From a virus (Duplodnaviria > Heunggongvirae > Uroviricota > Caudoviricetes): DNA of 29,158 nucleotides. The notes beneath the pieces are model-generated. The model was not told the origin of the DNA and made no database searches. It worked only from the letters and a program-made list of their open reading frames with translations. Of this stretch, positions 17,795 to 22,176 are shown piece by piece (within the stretch, counting starts at the first letter, position 1; each line of letters starts with the position of its first letter). The DNA is taken from IMG/VR virus record IMGVR_UViG_2731957841_000003. One strand, 5' to 3'. Made by a program: the position numbers and the translations under genes.

Positions 17795-18074
17795 TTCTCA
17801 ATCTCTCGATGGCGCAGCGCAGCAGATGCCAGTTGTTCAGGCTGACGAATAAAGTATAAATAAACTGGCTATGGTGTAAAGCCCCACATAGCATGAACAA
17901 ACACTACATATCAAATAGCTGGTACAAGGATAGAAATACGACACTTATTATTAAAAACGATTAGATAAATTACATTTTAATGTTATGCAAAAGTTCTTTT
18001 TTATCATAACATTTCAATAAAAGCATTACAGATGCAATCATCCCGTCATCATCAATTATTTAAGGTGGTTAAAC

Positions 18075-18161
18075 ATGGAAAATAACAAGTTCGCACATCT
18101 CGCTCCTTTTTTATCCGTAATCCTTTTCGCTTGTTGTTTTATATGGGCATTATTTTTATAA
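18075..18161 (+). CDS. 28-aa hydrophobic peptide (MENNKFAHLAPFLSVILFACCFIWALFL): possible small membrane protein or type I toxin-like peptide
   Basis: ATG preceded by AAGGTGG at 6-nt spacing; single predicted transmembrane helix; sits in an AT-rich intergenic stretch. Confidence 0.4.
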   Translation: MENNKFAHLAPFLSVILFACCFIWALFL

Positions 18162-18552
18162 AGTAGCCACATGATAAGTTGCTGGAATCATATTTCCCAC
18201 TCAAGTCATTAACATTTGATAAGATATATCTAAAAGGACGCCTTTACATTATTTATGCGTATATAATTTATTTATATACACAGTAAAGGTATCCTGGGAA
18301 AATATTTATCGTTAAAAAATACATCATAAATAATTAAGCTGAAATTTCAGAACACAACTAATACACACAATAAGGTTCAGTAACAGTAATCTATGTGGAC
18401 TACATCGAGATTTTTTGATTAAACTTTAATAACTTATTCCTAACACACAGAATGCATAAACTAAAAGTAAAACAAATAGTTATACGAAAAACAACCATAT
18501 TTATTCTATCTTCTCCTCTAATCAACATATCAATTATGTGTTTCATAACAGC

Positions 18553-18592
18553 TTGACATAACCCTCCAAAAGATGCATTTTTAATGCATGTT
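18553..18592 (+). promoter_or_regulatory. Putative promoter (-35 TTGACA at 18553..18558) with overlapping NsrR-type operator AAGATGCATTT-T-TAATGCATGTT (18570..18592)
   Basis: Perfect -35 hexamer; 11-1-11 inverted repeat with ATGCAT cores matching the NsrR consensus as I recall it; about 15 nt upstream of the SD of the yeaR-like gene. Confidence 0.55.
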
Positions 18593-18607
18593 TTGGAGGA
18601 GGTGGTT

Positions 18608-18946
18608 ATGACACACAAGAGAATTCCTAAAGATTGGGTAATCAAACGCTCAACTCCGTTCTTCACAAAAGAGAACGTACCTTCAGCGTTATTAACACAT
18701 CATAATACAGCAGCAGGTGTTTTTGGGCAGTTGTGCGTAATGGAAGGCACTGTAACATATTATGGTTTTACTGATGAGAATGCTACTGAACCGGAGATAA
18801 AAGTAGTCATTAATGCTGGCGCTTTTGCAACAAGCCCACCACAATACTGGCACCGTGTTGAACTAAGCGATGATGCTCAGTTTAATATTAACTTTTGGGT
18901 CGCTCCAGACTTCTCGGGCGAAAAAGTCTATAGCACCAAAAAATAG
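18608..18946 (+). CDS. YeaR-like DUF1971 protein (TehB-related)
   Basis: 112 aa from MTHKRIPKDWVIKRSTPFFTKENVPSALLTHH...; strong SD GGAGGAGGTGG; similar to E. coli YeaR as I recall it (...RSTPFWNKQTAPAG...); opposite strand to flanking phage genes. Confidence 0.7.
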   Translation: MTHKRIPKDWVIKRSTPFFTKENVPSALLTHHNTAAGVFGQLCVMEGTVTYYGFTDENATEPEIKVVINAGAFATSPPQYWHRVELSDDAQFNINFWVAPDFSGEKVYSTKK

Positions 18947-18975
18947 ATGATCATATTAAAAATGCTTTAACAGTC

Positions 18976-19012
18976 AGACCCGGCAGGGCTATCCCCGACG
19001 GGTCTCATTTTT
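18976..19012 (+). terminator. Candidate rho-independent terminator for the yeaR-like gene
   Basis: Stem agacccg/cgggtct (large loop) followed by CATTTTTG, 30 nt after the stop codon. Confidence 0.45.
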
Positions 19013-19566
19013 GTAAATATATTGGTTCTACATTGACAGGAGACTTCAACCATAAGAAGTAATCTGAATACTTGAGCAATAAATTTACTTAAGATTAATG
19101 AGCGCACCTTGCCGGACAAAGATAAACCAAGGTAACACCTTTTTTCTAGCCAGTATGTAATCAATCAGAAAGCCGCTCCATAAGAACAACAGCAAGACAA
19201 TAAATTGCCATTACAGCCGCAATAGCCAGCGCACATTTGAGAACCAGCACGACAACCCCCTGTATTAGACGCACACCAGTCCTGATAAATATGAGGCTGT
19301 ATCGTCAGTGATTCAATACAACTATTGGGTATAGTTTCTGTGATTTTATTCTGTAGAAATGGAACACAACAACCAGTCACCACCAGCACTTCCTTAAATG
19401 CTCTAAGTCAGAAACAAGCCAACATTTTAGTCCGCTTTGAGCGATCTGCAGACATTGCTAGCAGCCTTCTGTGTGAATTCTCAGGGAGCAGGTCGGCATA
19501 GCATCACGTTGAGGCTCTTACCCTACTTGTTCACACCAACCCTAACTCCACAGACTGATTCATAAA

Positions 19567-20568
19567 TTAGTAATCTGCGTGTTTCGCACTTTTCAGAAAT
19601 GCTTTCATATTTTCATTAGGTCGCTCAATTTCGAAGTTACTTCCATATAACTCTTGTAATTTTGGCCATAACTTACTTAATAACCCTCTCCTGCGATAAA
19701 ATGGATGTATCCAAACGGTAGATAGGTACGGAGAATTTGCATTTGAATTGTTTATTGTGACCAGCCCAACTAAACATTGTCGATAACCACTATTATCCAT
19801 TGATTGTATTTCTTCGACGAATGGATACGCGATTACATCAGTCCAACCATGATCGGTTGTATCCCATTGCATTCCGTCATGACATTCCTTCGACTGATAG
19901 CGGCGTAAAGCTACACACGCGAGCTTTTGCCAATCTGGAGAATTAATTGTGATCTCTTCATCGTATGACGCGCCTATTGGAGCGGGTATTGGTCTGATTA
20001 ATCCAGCATGGCATTCATCATAGAACTTCATGTTTCCCTCAGAAACGTTGTGTACGTTGGGTTGCTCCATGTGTGCGCCATTCAAAAATAGCTCTGATAG
20101 TAGTGTATCTACACTGTAATCTTTATTGATTATTGTCGGCTTAGAGTTTTTCTTATTAAGGCCGCGAGTAACGATTTTTTGATCAATGTTAACAACATGG
20201 AATAATCCGTCGGGGAGGCTAGCGAACCACGATGGGGCATCGGACCAGAATAGCATGCCTTTTGTACTTCTTAAGAGTTTAATTAAGTTAATACAAGCTT
20301 CTTCACTAGTCTTGCCGTTGATGCGAAGTATGTTAGGACTAAAGTAATATTCATCCATATCAGGGAATGCAGCTTCGCAAAACTCCTGTACATAATTTAG
20401 CACCTGGATTCTACAGAGATCATCATAGCTGGTAATAACTAAGGGGGTATCTTCATTACTATTATGATTATCAATAATGCAATCTATAGCGAGACTTACT
20501 GCTTTGCGTATCACTTCAGTTGAATCTAACGACTCTAAAAATTTTGTCTTTCGTGTGCGAATATCCAT
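19567..20568 (-). CDS. Hypothetical 333-aa protein with C-terminal GNAT-like acetyltransferase motif (second gene of AT-rich cargo cassette)
   Basis: C-terminal ...LSTVWIHPFYRRRGLLSKLWPKLQEL... resembles GNAT motif A (beta4-alpha3, R-x-x-G); N-terminal ~250 aa unassigned; AT-rich codon usage; 15-bp gap to upstream gene. Confidence 0.5.
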   Translation of the reverse strand: MDIRTRKTKFLESLDSTEVIRKAVSLAIDCIIDNHNSNEDTPLVITSYDDLCRIQVLNYVQEFCEAAFPDMDEYYFSPNILRINGKTSEEACINLIKLLRSTKGMLFWSDAPSWFASLPDGLFHVVNIDQKIVTRGLNKKNSKPTIINKDYSVDTLLSELFLNGAHMEQPNVHNVSEGNMKFYDECHAGLIRPIPAPIGASYDEEITINSPDWQKLACVALRRYQSKECHDGMQWDTTDHGWTDVIAYPFVEEIQSMDNSGYRQCLVGLVTINNSNANSPYLSTVWIHPFYRRRGLLSKLWPKLQELYGSNFEIERPNENMKAFLKSAKHADY

Positions 20569-20583
20569 GTATGACCTGCGCTA

Positions 20584-21606
20584 TTAAAATTCATGAATGA
20601 ACGGTTTGTCATCTGGTTGCAAAATGGTGGTTTTATTCGTTGCTACATTTAAACTGTTGTAGAGCATAATTGCCAGGTTCGATGCATTTTCAATCAGCGT
20701 TTCAAGATCCTGGTCTGTAATCACTACGAGGTTCCCTTCTTTATCCTTTCCACCACGATGCACTAAGTGATTTCGATTGAGGGTTGCCAATTCAATAGCT
20801 TCTATCGGACAGTCTTTTTGTACTTTTATATCGAATGTAGCTTCATAGCGGTCGATTACCTTTTTAGTGCTATGCCAGCTTGCACTGATCAAGTGTTCCT
20901 TGATTGACCTGATTAGCTCTCCCCTAATTTTCTCGATGGGTTCACCCTTGAAAGGCAACGCAGCAATATCTTTGCTTACTTTAAATTCAGTCTTACCTTT
21001 TTCTATACAATTGGCTATGTAGACATCATCTTTCTCTATAGAATTAATGAATAGCTCAACATAAAGCGTTTCCAAAGCTGTAATAACATTCGTGTAGAGC
21101 AAACTAAGCAAGTGGTTTTTTTGCTGTTGTTCAGTTTTATCTTTTGCAAGTTTTTTTATTTTATCGATATTATCAATGAATTTTAAATACGGATTACCGG
21201 AAGACGTTACAGCGTCGTAGATATCATCATCGTACCAATCATCTATATTATTTGAGTTTCCAGACCAGTCAAAACATTGTGTTTGTAATTCATCTACTAA
21301 TTCCTCAATATACTCAGATTTAACATATTGACCGAAGATGGATTGTAGTTCTTCGCTCGCATCATACGGCCCGCCATATATGTAAGCATAGCCACCTTCT
21401 CTACTTTCATACGGACAAGCATTTGCCGGATCTTCAAAGTTTTCAAAGAACCAGTTTTTCATTACTTCGAGTTGATCTTTTTTGCTTATGTATTTTAAAG
21501 ATTTTAGTGGAACTTTCTTTCCATTAACCTCGAAAACAATTTTCACGATGTAACGCTCCCTTGTATCAATTGCGCAACTATTATACCACAGCGAAATACA
21601 GGGCAT
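20584..21606 (-). CDS. Hypothetical 340-aa protein with C-terminal R-x4-H (HEPN-like) motif (first gene of AT-rich cargo cassette)
   Basis: ORF listed as 363 aa; preferred start is the ATG at 21606 (MPCISLWYNS...) preceded by AAGGAGG. C-terminal ...ELATLNRNHLVHRGG... carries R-x4-H; strongly AT-rich. Confidence 0.5.
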   Translation of the reverse strand: MPCISLWYNSCAIDTRERYIVKIVFEVNGKKVPLKSLKYISKKDQLEVMKNWFFENFEDPANACPYESREGGYAYIYGGPYDASEELQSIFGQYVKSEYIEELVDELQTQCFDWSGNSNNIDDWYDDDIYDAVTSSGNPYLKFIDNIDKIKKLAKDKTEQQQKNHLLSLLYTNVITALETLYVELFINSIEKDDVYIANCIEKGKTEFKVSKDIAALPFKGEPIEKIRGELIRSIKEHLISASWHSTKKVIDRYEATFDIKVQKDCPIEAIELATLNRNHLVHRGGKDKEGNLVVITDQDLETLIENASNLAIMLYNSLNVATNKTTILQPDDKPFIHEF

Positions 21607-21744
21607 AACCTGCCTCCTTAAACTAACATACCATGAGCCAGCAATGTCCGCTATTGGCACAAAGCGGACAACCACGCTAGCTCTCCCCTGTGCCAGAAAA
21701 ATGTCAATTTACATATGAACTAATGCTCTTTGATCTAGTAACGT

Positions 21745-22176
21745 CTATAAATACCGAAGATTTCCTTGATAAAATGCCAGTACACGTTTCATAACTTCAC
21801 TCTTCCGGCACTCGCGACAGATTATGTTCTGACGCCTGTCATAGCGGCGTATTTCTCCGTCTGGTAATGACCAGATAAGGTCAGGATCAACCACAACCGT
21901 TTTTTTCACCTTTGCCCTGGATAGTTTTTTGCGGGCGTTTTTCCAATCCTTACGAGCCTGTTCAGACGGGAATAACCCATAGCCAGAGTTGTATACATCG
22001 CCACTGGCAACCAACTCTCTGGCAAGAATGCTCATCAGATATCTTGTCGCACCTGTCTTGGCCTCCAGTTGCCTTAACGTCTCGCGCCCACTCTGGCGTA
22101 CCAACTCAACAACCTGCTCCTTAATTTTTTCACGCTCTTCCTGTGTAAAAACTTTTGCCATAAGCGCCTCCGGCAA
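21745..22176 (-). CDS. Hypothetical basic 143-aa protein (nin-region-like position)
   Basis: ORF contiguous with the upstream gene (stop/start adjacent at 22176/22177); lysine/arginine-rich; no recognisable motif. Confidence 0.45.
   Translation of the reverse strand: MPEALMAKVFTQEEREKIKEQVVELVRQSGRETLRQLEAKTGATRYLMSILARELVASGDVYNSGYGLFPSEQARKDWKNARKKLSRAKVKKTVVVDPDLIWSLPDGEIRRYDRRQNIICRECRKSEVMKRVLAFYQGNLRYL

What the first reader, a model, noticed from the sequence alone, without database searches (positions are those of the whole stretch)
19567..21744. AT-rich two-gene cargo cassette: HEPN-like motif protein plus GNAT-like protein (candidate undescribed defence or toxin system)
Two co-directional genes separated by 15 bp (20584..21606, then 19567..20568) sit between the replication genes and the Q-proximal genes, a classic accessory slot in lambdoid phages. 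Both are markedly more AT-rich than the surrounding phage backbone, which suggests horizontal acquisition. The first protein ends with ...LATLNRNHLVHRGG..., an R-x4-H arrangement as in HEPN RNase active sites. The second has a C-terminal segment ...VWIHPFYRRRGLLSKLW... that looks like GNAT motif A, the fold used by tRNA-acetylating toxins; neither long N-terminal region resembles anything I recognise. I am not aware of a characterised defence system with this architecture. A TTGACA -35-like hexamer (minus strand, 21702..21707) and a 7-bp inverted repeat (about 21645..21672) lie upstream.
Basis: partly seen in the sequence, partly recalled or inferred. Interest (0 to 1): 0.85.

Follow-up and report, generated by a model that had tools for sequence, protein, structure and literature searches.

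The report
Known phage-defence cassette DS-33 (HEPN nuclease)
The two AT-rich prophage genes are a real anti-phage defence cassette, but it has already been tested and published as "DS-33"; there the HEPN nuclease gene alone gave the protection and the GNAT-like gene was dispensable.

Summary
Two co-directional minus-strand genes, 15 nt apart and AT-rich (36-39% GC against 50% upstream), sit after the replication genes of a Rac-like E. coli prophage. Gene A starts at GTG 21546, not ATG 21606.

The defence interpretation is right, but the cassette is not undescribed. It is DS-33 of DefensePredictor (DeWeirdt et al., bioRxiv 2025, Science 2026). A is identical to DS-33A (320/320) and B matches DS-33B at 332/333. 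The published plaque data show 2-6 logs of protection against T7, T3, Bas67 and Bas26. Protection is lost with ΔHEPN or R258A and kept with ΔGNAT.

Comparative genomics agrees. A is usually a solo gene in defence islands. B occurs solo, survives deletion of A, and is frameshifted in some strains where A is intact. The A-B pair is nonetheless co-inherited from E. coli to Aeromonas.

New here:
- The tested B allele carries L289 at a Pro that is invariant in 44/44 homologues; the window has the common P289.
- The cassette is bounded by 33-nt hairpin-forming inverted repeats in several different genomic backbones.

The RNA target, the trigger and B's role remain unknown.

The parts
20584..21546 (-). 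Gene A (DS-33A, WP_014639476.1), 320 aa. Residues ~1-115 are the HEPN/RES N-terminal domain 1. Residues ~140-308 are a RiboL-PSP-type HEPN domain. The start codon is GTG.
20755..20775 (-). HEPN catalytic motif R258-N-H-L-V-H263-R264 of A.
   Evidence: The motif is present in every full-length homologue checked, down to 26-29% identity; R258, H263 and R264 are invariant across the 53 aligned sequences. Coordinates checked. R258A abolishes defence in DefensePredictor Table S7.
19567..20568 (-). Gene B (DS-33B family, WP_000354966.1), 333 aa. It has an orphan alpha/beta N-terminal domain (~1-200) and a C-terminal GNAT acyltransferase fold (~200-333).
   Evidence: ORF. AF2 pLDDT is 90.6. Foldseek PDB hits are all acetyltransferases, with probability 0.85-1.0 (1.0 for most). 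The C-terminal half alone scores 20.9 bits against PF00583, just above the cutoff of 20.7. 332/333 identical to the tested DS-33B.
19684..19713 (-). GNAT beta4/motif A segment WIHPFYRRRG of B. It includes P289 (19702-19704), which is Leu in the published tested allele.
   Evidence: W286, H288 and P289 are each in 44/44 homologues and R292 in 45/45. The window allele is on >=1000 contigs and the L289 allele on 31.
21556..21588 (-). Candidate promoter and translation signals of A: extended -10 TGgTATAAT (21588-21580) and ribosome-binding site AAGGGAG (21562-21556).
   Evidence: Read from the sequence. Conserved in Erwinia and, upstream of B, in the A-deleted locus L096. Function is inferred, not shown.
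21637..21669 (-). Upstream boundary arm, a 33-nt hairpin-forming element: GTCCGCTTTGTGCCAATAGCGGACATTGCTGGC.
   Evidence: the repeat finder pair I1. Local alignment score is 31 against 17.4 +/- 2.3 in shuffles, reached by 1 of 500. It folds at -26.8 kcal/mol, z -2.7. Homology with Erwinia begins exactly here. Present in L001, L010, L090-L093, L096, L097 and L102.
19430..19462 (+). Downstream boundary arm, the inverted copy of the same 33-nt element: GTCCGCTTTGAGCGATCTGCAGACATTGCTAGC.
   Evidence: Homology with Erwinia and L094 ends at this arm.

Best explanation
The cassette is the published anti-phage system DS-33, carried as cargo in a Rac-like prophage.

Gene A is the defence effector. It is a single-chain HEPN ribonuclease whose N-terminal NTD1 domain most likely keeps the nuclease silent and senses infection. 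On infection by T7-like phages (T7, T3, Bas67) or the T5-like phage Bas26, the HEPN site (R258/H263, probably formed across a dimer) is proposed to cleave RNA and stop phage production, probably by abortive infection.

Gene B is a GNAT-fold acyltransferase with a lineage-specific N-terminal domain. It travels with A in one clade but is not needed for the protection measured. It is most likely an accessory or independent module.

Shown: domain folds, motif invariance, identity to DS-33, the published defence phenotype, and its dependence on gene A and on R258.

Inferred: RNase activity, the RNA target, dimerisation, the sensor role of NTD1, and abortive infection.
For: Identity to DS-33:
- A is 320/320 and B 332/333 identical to DS-33A/B.
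- DS-33 is marked defensive=TRUE.

Published log10 protection, replicate 1 / replicate 2:
- Wild type: T7 3.8/2.6, T3 3.3/2.4, Bas67 4.0/2.0, Bas26 5.0/5.9, T5 0.8/0.1.
- ΔHEPN: all <=0.54.
- R258A: all <=0.78.
- ΔGNAT: T7 4.8/4.3, T3 3.3/3.3, Bas67 4.0/3.3, Bas26 5.0/4.9.

A is a HEPN protein:
- E159, R258, H263 and R264 are invariant.
- Pfam HEPN_RiboL-PSP and HEPN_RES_NTD1 hit family members.

NTD1 is a reusable module:
- NTD1 is joined to other C-terminal modules in about 50 alphaproteobacterial loci, as expected of a reusable sensor or adaptor domain.

A usually stands alone, in defence contexts:
- Among the 28 loci matching most of A's length in the scan of one genome per species, only one (Erwinia) has B.
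- In Yersinia, solo A sits beside an ApeA-type HEPN gene and a P2-like portal gene.
- In E. coli, a 71%-identical A is solo in a small mobile island.
- Aeromonas A-B loci lie next to TIR and SIR2-STALD genes.
Against: - No biochemical data exist for DS-33. The paper's main text does not discuss it, so RNase activity, target, trigger and abortive infection are all inferred from the family.
- The window protein itself scores below Pfam's cutoff for PF18870 (22 bits against 27.4) and does not hit PF18735 on its own.
- Foldseek against the PDB found nothing for A.
- The claim that B is dispensable rests on a B allele with L289 at an otherwise invariant Pro, on five phages, and on plasmid expression in MG1655.
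- A and B have been co-inherited with equal dS and purifying selection from E. coli to Aeromonas. This is not what a mere passenger gene would be expected to show.
Confidence: 0.8

Rival explanations
1. This is an obligate two-component system. HEPN and GNAT would work together, for example as a toxin-antitoxin pair or a sensor-effector pair, and both would be needed for defence.
For: - The operon is tight, with a 15-nt spacer conserved from E. coli to Aeromonas.
- dS is equal for both genes and both are under purifying selection.
- The tested B allele may be a hypomorph, because it carries L289 at an invariant Pro.
Against: - ΔGNAT keeps full protection in two replicates.
- The ΔGNAT strain is viable, so B is not an essential antitoxin of A.
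- A is solo in most lineages.
- B is solo in Shewanella, Neptunicella and a Serratia ICE.
- A was deleted with B kept in L096/L097.
- B is frameshifted while A is intact in E. coli EC2.
Confidence: 0.07
2. B is a modulator of A. It would be an acyltransferase that dampens the HEPN nuclease, by analogy with MntA AMPylating HepT, or that tunes its activation threshold. It would not be required for defence as such.
For: - ΔGNAT protection is at least that of wild type in 9 of 10 phage-by-replicate comparisons, higher in 6, with a mean gain of about 0.5 log.
- The pair is co-inherited over long divergence.
- GNAT motifs A and B are intact in the window allele.
Against: - The effect is small and could reflect plasmid or operon expression.
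- B persists under purifying selection without A (omega 0.25 in L096).
- B occurs in genomes that lack any A relative next to it.
- No interaction or acetylation data exist.
Confidence: 0.15
3. B is an independent cargo gene, either a separate defence or counter-counter-defence function or another fitness factor. On this reading it merely shares a mobile cassette and a promoter with A.
For: - Solo B lies between PD-Lambda-4_A and PD-T4-3 in L096.
- Solo B occurs in a Serratia ICE and in a Shewanella phage-like region.
- B is under purifying selection when solo.
- Its DefensePredictor log-odds is weakly positive (1.08).
- The B family is small and tied to mobile elements: 66 clusters and 21 representatives in 1.84 billion proteins.
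Against: - ΔHEPN, which still carries B, gave no protection against the five phages tested.
- No PADLOC hit.
- No phenotype of any kind is known for B.
Confidence: 0.45
4. The cassette is a prophage-stabilising toxin/addiction module, and phage defence is a side effect of over-expression.
For: - The cassette sits among other prophage toxins such as YdaT, RalR, KilR and HokD.
Against: - A alone is tolerated in MG1655, since the ΔGNAT strain is viable.
- No antitoxin-like gene (MNT, RHH) is present.
- The phage specificity (T7-like phages and Bas26 strongly, T5 weakly) and the dependence on R258 point to triggered immunity.
- A relatives cluster with known defence genes.
Confidence: 0.05

Closest known systems
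DS-33 (working name 'GNAT') of DefensePredictor, DeWeirdt et al., bioRxiv 10.1101/2025.01.08.631726; Science 2026 (PMC13092281)
   Same: It is the same cassette. A is 320/320 identical (WP_014639476.1) and B is 332/333 identical. Gene order and the 15-nt spacing are the same. It is validated against T7, T3, Bas67 and Bas26, and it needs the HEPN gene and R258.
   Different: The window carries the common B allele (P289, WP_000354966.1). The tested clone carried L289 (WP_000354965.1). The paper gives no mechanism and does not discuss the system in its text.
PD-T4-2 (Vassallo et al. 2022): PD-T4-2_A DUF262/ParB-like plus PD-T4-2_B RiboL-PSP-HEPN
   Same: A's HEPN domain is a remote relative of PD-T4-2_B. 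The paper's HHpred result gives probability 96.1 over 55% of A. Both belong to the RiboL-PSP HEPN family, which Anantharaman et al. 2013 describe as distantly related to AbiD/AbiF.
   Different: There is no DUF262/ParB partner here. A carries an NTD1 domain that PD-T4-2_B is not reported to have. The PADLOC PD-T4-2 models do not match A at E<=1. The phage range also differs: T7-like phages and Bas26 here, T4 for PD-T4-2.
Type VII toxin-antitoxin HepT/MntA (HEPN-MNT)
   Different: The neighbour is a GNAT acyltransferase, not an MNT nucleotidyltransferase. It is not needed to keep cells alive, because ΔGNAT is viable. A has an extra N-terminal domain and is about 2.5 times the size of HepT.
GNAT tRNA-acetylating toxins (TacT, AtaT, ItaT, KacT)
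   Same: B has a GNAT fold, with motif A (R-x-x-G) and a motif B-like N-x-x-M-x-x-F.
   Different: B is 333 aa with a 200-aa orphan N-terminal domain, and there is no RHH antitoxin gene. Its best structural matches are HAT1, MYST, ESCO1, AAC and SSAT rather than these toxins. Toxicity is untested.

Membership tests
DS-33 (DefensePredictor) | Proteins WP_014639476.1 plus WP_000354965.1 in this order | tested here: met
   A is 320/320 identical. B is 332/333, differing only at P289L. PGAP gives the same accession for A and WP_000354966.1 for B.
DS-33 (DefensePredictor) | Confers anti-phage protection when expressed in E. coli | not testable with these tools
   Taken from the paper's Tables S6/S7 for the near-identical clone. 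It was not measured for this window's allele.
HEPN superfamily | Four-helix up-down HEPN fold | tested here: met
HEPN superfamily | Rx4-6H motif in the last core helix, plus a conserved polar or acidic residue in the first helix | tested here: met
   R258, H263 and R264 are invariant, and so is E159 in ALET.
HEPN superfamily | Metal-independent RNase activity | not testable with these tools
   The only evidence is genetic: R258A loses defence.
Pfam PF18735 HEPN_RiboL-PSP | Match to the family HMM above its threshold | tested here: inconclusive
   The window protein alone gives no hit at E<=1. 26 of 53 aligned family members hit, with best E 7e-11. [quoted passage not shown]
Pfam PF18870 HEPN_RES_NTD1 | Match to the family HMM above its threshold (27.4 bits) | tested here: inconclusive
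   The window protein scores 22.2 bits (E 1.9e-4), below the cutoff. 49 of 53 family members hit at E<0.01.
PD-T4-2 | Adjacent DUF262/ParB-like PD-T4-2_A gene | tested here: not met
   The neighbours are DUF977 and the GNAT protein. No DUF262 is present.
PD-T4-2 | Match to the PADLOC PD-T4-2_B model | tested here: not met
   No PD-T4-2 model is listed at E<=1. Only the paper's remote HHpred similarity exists.
GNAT acyltransferase superfamily (gene B) | GNAT fold with motif A (R/Q-x-x-G-x-G/A) and motif B | tested here: met
   Foldseek gives probability 0.85-1.0 (1.0 for most) to many GNAT enzymes. The C-terminal half scores 20.9 bits against PF00583, above the cutoff of 20.7. R292 is invariant, G295 is in 37/45 homologues, and N318/M321/F324 are conserved. 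The final G/A of motif A is Leu or Lys.
GNAT acyltransferase superfamily (gene B) | Acyl-CoA-dependent transfer activity | not testable with these tools
GNAT-RHH toxin-antitoxin (TacT/AtaT type) | Small single-domain GNAT toxin with an adjacent RHH antitoxin | tested here: not met
   B is 333 aa with an extra N-terminal domain. No RHH or other small gene lies beside it.
Type VII TA HepT/MntA | MNT nucleotidyltransferase partner that neutralises the HEPN toxin | tested here: not met
   No NTP_transf_2/MNT domain is found in B or in the neighbours. The ΔGNAT strain is viable.

The most novel reading that the evidence does not exclude
The GNAT protein may be a working part of the system whose role was masked in the only published test. 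That clone carried a rare allele (L289, seen on 31 contigs against at least 1000 for P289) with a substitution at a Pro that is invariant in the GNAT core. With the common allele, B could acylate and restrain the HEPN nuclease, which would be an acetylation-based counterpart of HepT/MntA AMPylation. Alternatively it could add a second layer of defence. In this reading the whole unit moves between prophages and defence islands as a cassette bounded by 33-nt hairpin inverted repeats.
Probability: 0.15. Interest if true: 0.6.

Novelty: already known. Interest (0 to 1): 0.3.

Why it matters

What remains useful is narrower:
1. DS-33 has no published mechanism. The family analysis here points to a single-chain NTD1-HEPN sensor-nuclease that is usually a stand-alone gene. 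That suggests how to test its trigger and its target.
2. The conclusion that the GNAT gene is dispensable rests on a rare allele mutated at an invariant residue, so it should be repeated with the common allele found in this window.
3. The hairpin inverted repeats that bound the cassette in unrelated backbones may show how such defence cargo is exchanged between prophages and defence islands.

Tried and rejected
- PADLOC models gave only weak, unrelated hits for A and none for B.
- NCBIfam gave nothing meaningful.
- PHROGs places both proteins in 'unknown function' families, phrog_17908 and phrog_16994.
- The INPHARED phage collection does not hold the cassette; only the DUF977 flank matched.
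- Profile searches against PDB sequences found nothing for A or B.
- A full-text search for the WP accessions found no paper. The match came only from the supplementary tables.
- A search for 'RiboL-PSP' found one irrelevant paper.
- Rfam gave no credible RNA family in 18900-21900.
- A phmmer search of B's N-terminal 200 aa against 1.84 billion representatives found only B-family proteins, so it gave no functional lead.
- No target-site duplication was seen next to the inverted-repeat arms (read).
- The arms were not found in the Aeromonas A-B loci or in solo-A loci.
- I rejected the idea that B is an antitoxin of A, and the idea that the pair is a GNAT-RHH or HepT/MntA system. The reasons are in the membership table.
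Full report
**What is in the sequence**

The window is a Rac-like E. coli prophage. Related genomes carry intR/xisR next to ttcA, recET, kilR, sieB, ydaT, trkG and the lysis genes.

On the minus strand, after DnaC, DUF1627 and DUF977, lie two co-directional ORFs separated by 15 nt. A ends at 20584 but starts at GTG 21546 (320 aa), not at ATG 21606. The evidence for that start:
- The GTG and its AAGGGAG ribosome-binding site are conserved in E. coli, Erwinia, Aeromonas and Yersinia.
- The ATG is CAC in Erwinia.
- All homologues begin at this position.
- PGAP calls the same start.

The genes are AT-rich: 36.1% and 39.1% GC, with GC3 of 0.35/0.36. The replication genes upstream are at 49.9% GC with GC3 of 0.48-0.61. 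The AT-rich stretch runs on downstream to about 18000.

TTGACA has no -10 partner, and the promoter scan of the region found no more sites than shuffled sequence.

**What the proteins are**

Protein A. On its own it gives only a sub-threshold Pfam hit to HEPN_RES_NTD1 (22 bits). Its family is clearer. Of 53 aligned relatives, down to 26% identity, 49 hit PF18870 and 26 hit PF18735, which is HEPN_RiboL-PSP. UniRef names the exact sequence a RiboL-PSP-HEPN protein.

- The R-[NH]-[HD]-x-[VI]-H motif is present in every full-length relative checked.
- E159 (in ALET), W224, H225, R258, H263 and R264 are invariant across the 53 aligned sequences, as is a GGP motif in the N-terminal domain.
- The AlphaFold model has pLDDT 88.
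- Foldseek against the PDB found nothing.

Protein B. Its model has pLDDT 90.6. It has a C-terminal GNAT fold: Foldseek gives probability 0.85-1.0 (1.0 for most) to HAT1, MYST, ESCO1, AAC and SSAT enzymes. The C-terminal half alone just passes the Pfam Acetyltransf_1 threshold (20.9 bits against 20.7).

Its N-terminal 200 residues are an orphan domain. A full phmmer scan of 1.84 billion representative proteins found only 21 hits; the full-length ones are all B-family proteins of about 330 aa.

**It is already known**

The supplementary tables of DefensePredictor (DeWeirdt et al., bioRxiv January 2025; Science 2026; PMC13092281) list a system with working name 'GNAT', called DS-33. It consists of WP_014639476.1 and WP_000354965.1 from an E. 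coli contig and is marked defensive=TRUE. A in the window is identical to DS-33A (320/320). B differs from DS-33B at one residue.

Table S7 gives two replicate plaque assays. Values are log10 protection, replicate 1 / replicate 2.

| Construct | T7 | T3 | Bas67 | Bas26 | T5 |
|---|---|---|---|---|---|
| Wild type | 3.8 / 2.6 | 3.3 / 2.4 | 4.0 / 2.0 | 5.0 / 5.9 | 0.8 / 0.1 |
| ΔGNAT | 4.8 / 4.3 | 3.3 / 3.3 | 4.0 / 3.3 | 5.0 / 4.9 | 1.7 / 0.5 |
| ΔHEPN | all values <=0.54 | | | | |
| R258A | all values <=0.78 | | | | |

Bas67 is a Berlinvirus (Autographiviridae) and Bas26 an Epseptimavirus (Demerecviridae).

The main text of the paper does not discuss DS-33. It says only that four validated systems contain HEPN domains. 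The paper's own HHpred column links A remotely (probability 96.1) to PD-T4-2_B, the RiboL-PSP-HEPN component of PD-T4-2. Its partner PD-T4-2_A is a DUF262 protein. The PADLOC models do not detect A or B.

**Is it a two-gene system?**

Comparative genomics says mostly no, in agreement with the ΔGNAT result.

- A scan of one genome per species returned 28 loci matching most of A's length. Only the closest one (Erwinia, 93%) has B.
- Relatives of A at 76% (Aeromonas taiwanensis), 75% (Yersinia alsatica), 71% (E. coli, in a small resolvase/AlpA island) and 63% identity are solo. So are the distant ones in other phyla.
- The Yersinia copy sits beside an ApeA-type HEPN gene (ApeA_NTD1 plus HEPN_Apea) and a P2-like portal gene.
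- B relatives are solo in Shewanella, Neptunicella and a Serratia conjugative element.
- In two viral contigs, B (86%) is preceded by A's promoter region and by a remnant of A, its first ~3 and last ~11 codons (...PFILEF*). A was therefore deleted and B kept. One of these loci lies between PD-Lambda-4_A and PD-T4-3.
- The opposite also occurs: in E. coli EC2, B is frameshifted while A is intact.

The pair is nonetheless not accidental.

- In Aeromonas, A (87%) and B (79%) keep the same 15-nt spacing and sit next to TIR and SIR2-STALD genes.
- dS is about equal for the two genes in each comparison.
- Both genes are under purifying selection, with omega 0.13-0.20 for A and 0.23-0.36 for B.

So A and B are separable modules that have been co-inherited as one operon in one clade.

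**How it most likely works**

A is a single-chain immune nuclease. The N-terminal NTD1 domain is also found joined to other C-terminal modules. About 50 alphaproteobacterial loci have NTD1 followed by a 'GIGHNNPPE' segment and a hydrophobic tail, and one Streptomyces protein has a HEPN-like segment in front of it. The Pfam name also records fusions to RES domains.

That modularity suggests NTD1 is the regulatory or sensing part and HEPN the effector. By analogy with other HEPN systems, activation on infection would lead to RNA cleavage and arrested translation. Genetics shows only that gene A and R258 are needed. RNase activity, the target, dimerisation, the trigger and abortive infection are all inferred.

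B is probably an active acyltransferase. Motif A, R292 and the motif B-like N318/M321/F324 are conserved. Its substrate is unknown. My estimates for B's role:

| Reading | Probability |
|---|---|
| Independent or accessory cargo | about 0.45 |
| Modulator of A | about 0.15 |
| Obligate partner of A | about 0.07 |

**New points from this analysis**

1. The only difference between the window's B and the tested DS-33B is P289L, inside WIHPFYRRRG. All 44 homologues with a residue at this position have Pro. The window allele is seen on at least 1000 contigs and the tested allele on 31. The finding that B is dispensable may therefore have been obtained with an impaired B. ΔGNAT also gave equal or higher protection in 9 of 10 comparisons.
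2. The cassette is bounded by a 33-nt inverted repeat (21637-21669 and 19430-19462), and each arm is itself a hairpin. The alignment score is 31 against 17.4 +/- 2.3 in shuffles, reached by 1 of 500. Homology with the Erwinia locus starts and stops at the arms. The arms flank the cassette in a Rac-like prophage, in the Qin-like prophage of strain S88, in Erwinia, and in the defence island L096, where they enclose B, an IS element and PD-T4-3. They are absent from Aeromonas and from solo-A loci. I saw no target-site duplication.
3. The same prophage slot holds a different 195-aa gene in strain RM13745, so it is a variable cargo site.

**Verdict**

The defence interpretation is right, but 'undescribed' and 'two-gene system' are not. 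The cassette is in 205 of 5426 complete E. coli genomes, where it is still annotated as 'hypothetical protein'.

As a finding it is already known. The residual interest lies in the unknown mechanism, the allele caveat for the GNAT gene, and the inverted-repeat cassette boundaries.

Noticed in passing
window 21637-21669 (-) and 19430-19462 (+); also L001, L010, L090-L098, L102: A 33-nt hairpin-forming inverted repeat (GTCCGCTTTGnGCnAnnnGCnGACATTGCTnGC) bounds the A-B cassette exactly. It recurs around the cassette in different backbones: Rac-like and Qin-like prophages, the Erwinia chromosome, and a defence island. No transposase and no target-site duplication were seen.
   Followed up: partly
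L096 4817-5002 and L097 4876-5002 (IMG/VR contigs): Solo-B loci keep A's promoter region and a 13-codon remnant of A (start fused to ...PFILEF*). A was therefore cleanly deleted from an ancestral A-B cassette while B stayed under purifying selection (omega 0.25).
   Followed up: yes
L096 736-4329 and 7909-8697: The solo-B locus is a defence island. A full-length PD-Lambda-4_A (E=0) lies upstream, and a PD-T4-3 GIY-YIG protein (E 1e-22) lies inside the same pair of inverted-repeat arms, after an IS3-family insertion.
   Followed up: partly
window 19702-19704 (B codon 289): The window has Pro. The published tested DS-33B has Leu at this position, which is Pro in all 44 homologues with a residue there. 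The Leu allele is rare (31 contigs against at least 1000).
   Followed up: yes
L101 468-1470 (E. coli EC2, NZ_CP058571.1): B is annotated as a frameshifted pseudogene while A is intact. The three wastewater strains with 99.9% identity and a 1-nt longer match may carry the same lesion.
   Followed up: partly
A family C-termini (P0001-P0115); L038-L089: 81 of 108 full-length A-family proteins end in Phe as their very last residue. Many NTD1-only alphaproteobacterial relatives end in Pro-Phe after a 'GIGHNNPPE' motif and a hydrophobic tail. The meaning is unknown.
   Followed up: no
L012 3338-4699 (-) (Yersinia alsatica): A solo A relative (75%) sits next to an ApeA-like HEPN protein (ApeA_NTD1 plus HEPN_Apea). 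An Ogr-like zinc-finger gene and a P2 Q-portal-like gene follow, which suggests the P2 defence hotspot.
   Followed up: partly
L103 1888-2475 (E. coli RM13745): The same slot, between DUF977 and hokD, holds an unrelated 195-aa hypothetical protein (WP_050940328.1) instead of the A-B cassette. The slot is a variable cargo site.
   Followed up: no
window 18001-18946: A very AT-rich stretch (28.6% GC at 18001-18500) and an opposite-strand DUF1971 gene (18584-18946, + strand) lie just downstream of the cassette. This may be a further acquired gene.
   Followed up: no
P0197 (570 aa): One protein matched residues 160-199 of B in 10 separate stretches. It appears to be a repeat protein built from the IRPIPAP-containing segment.
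   Followed up: no
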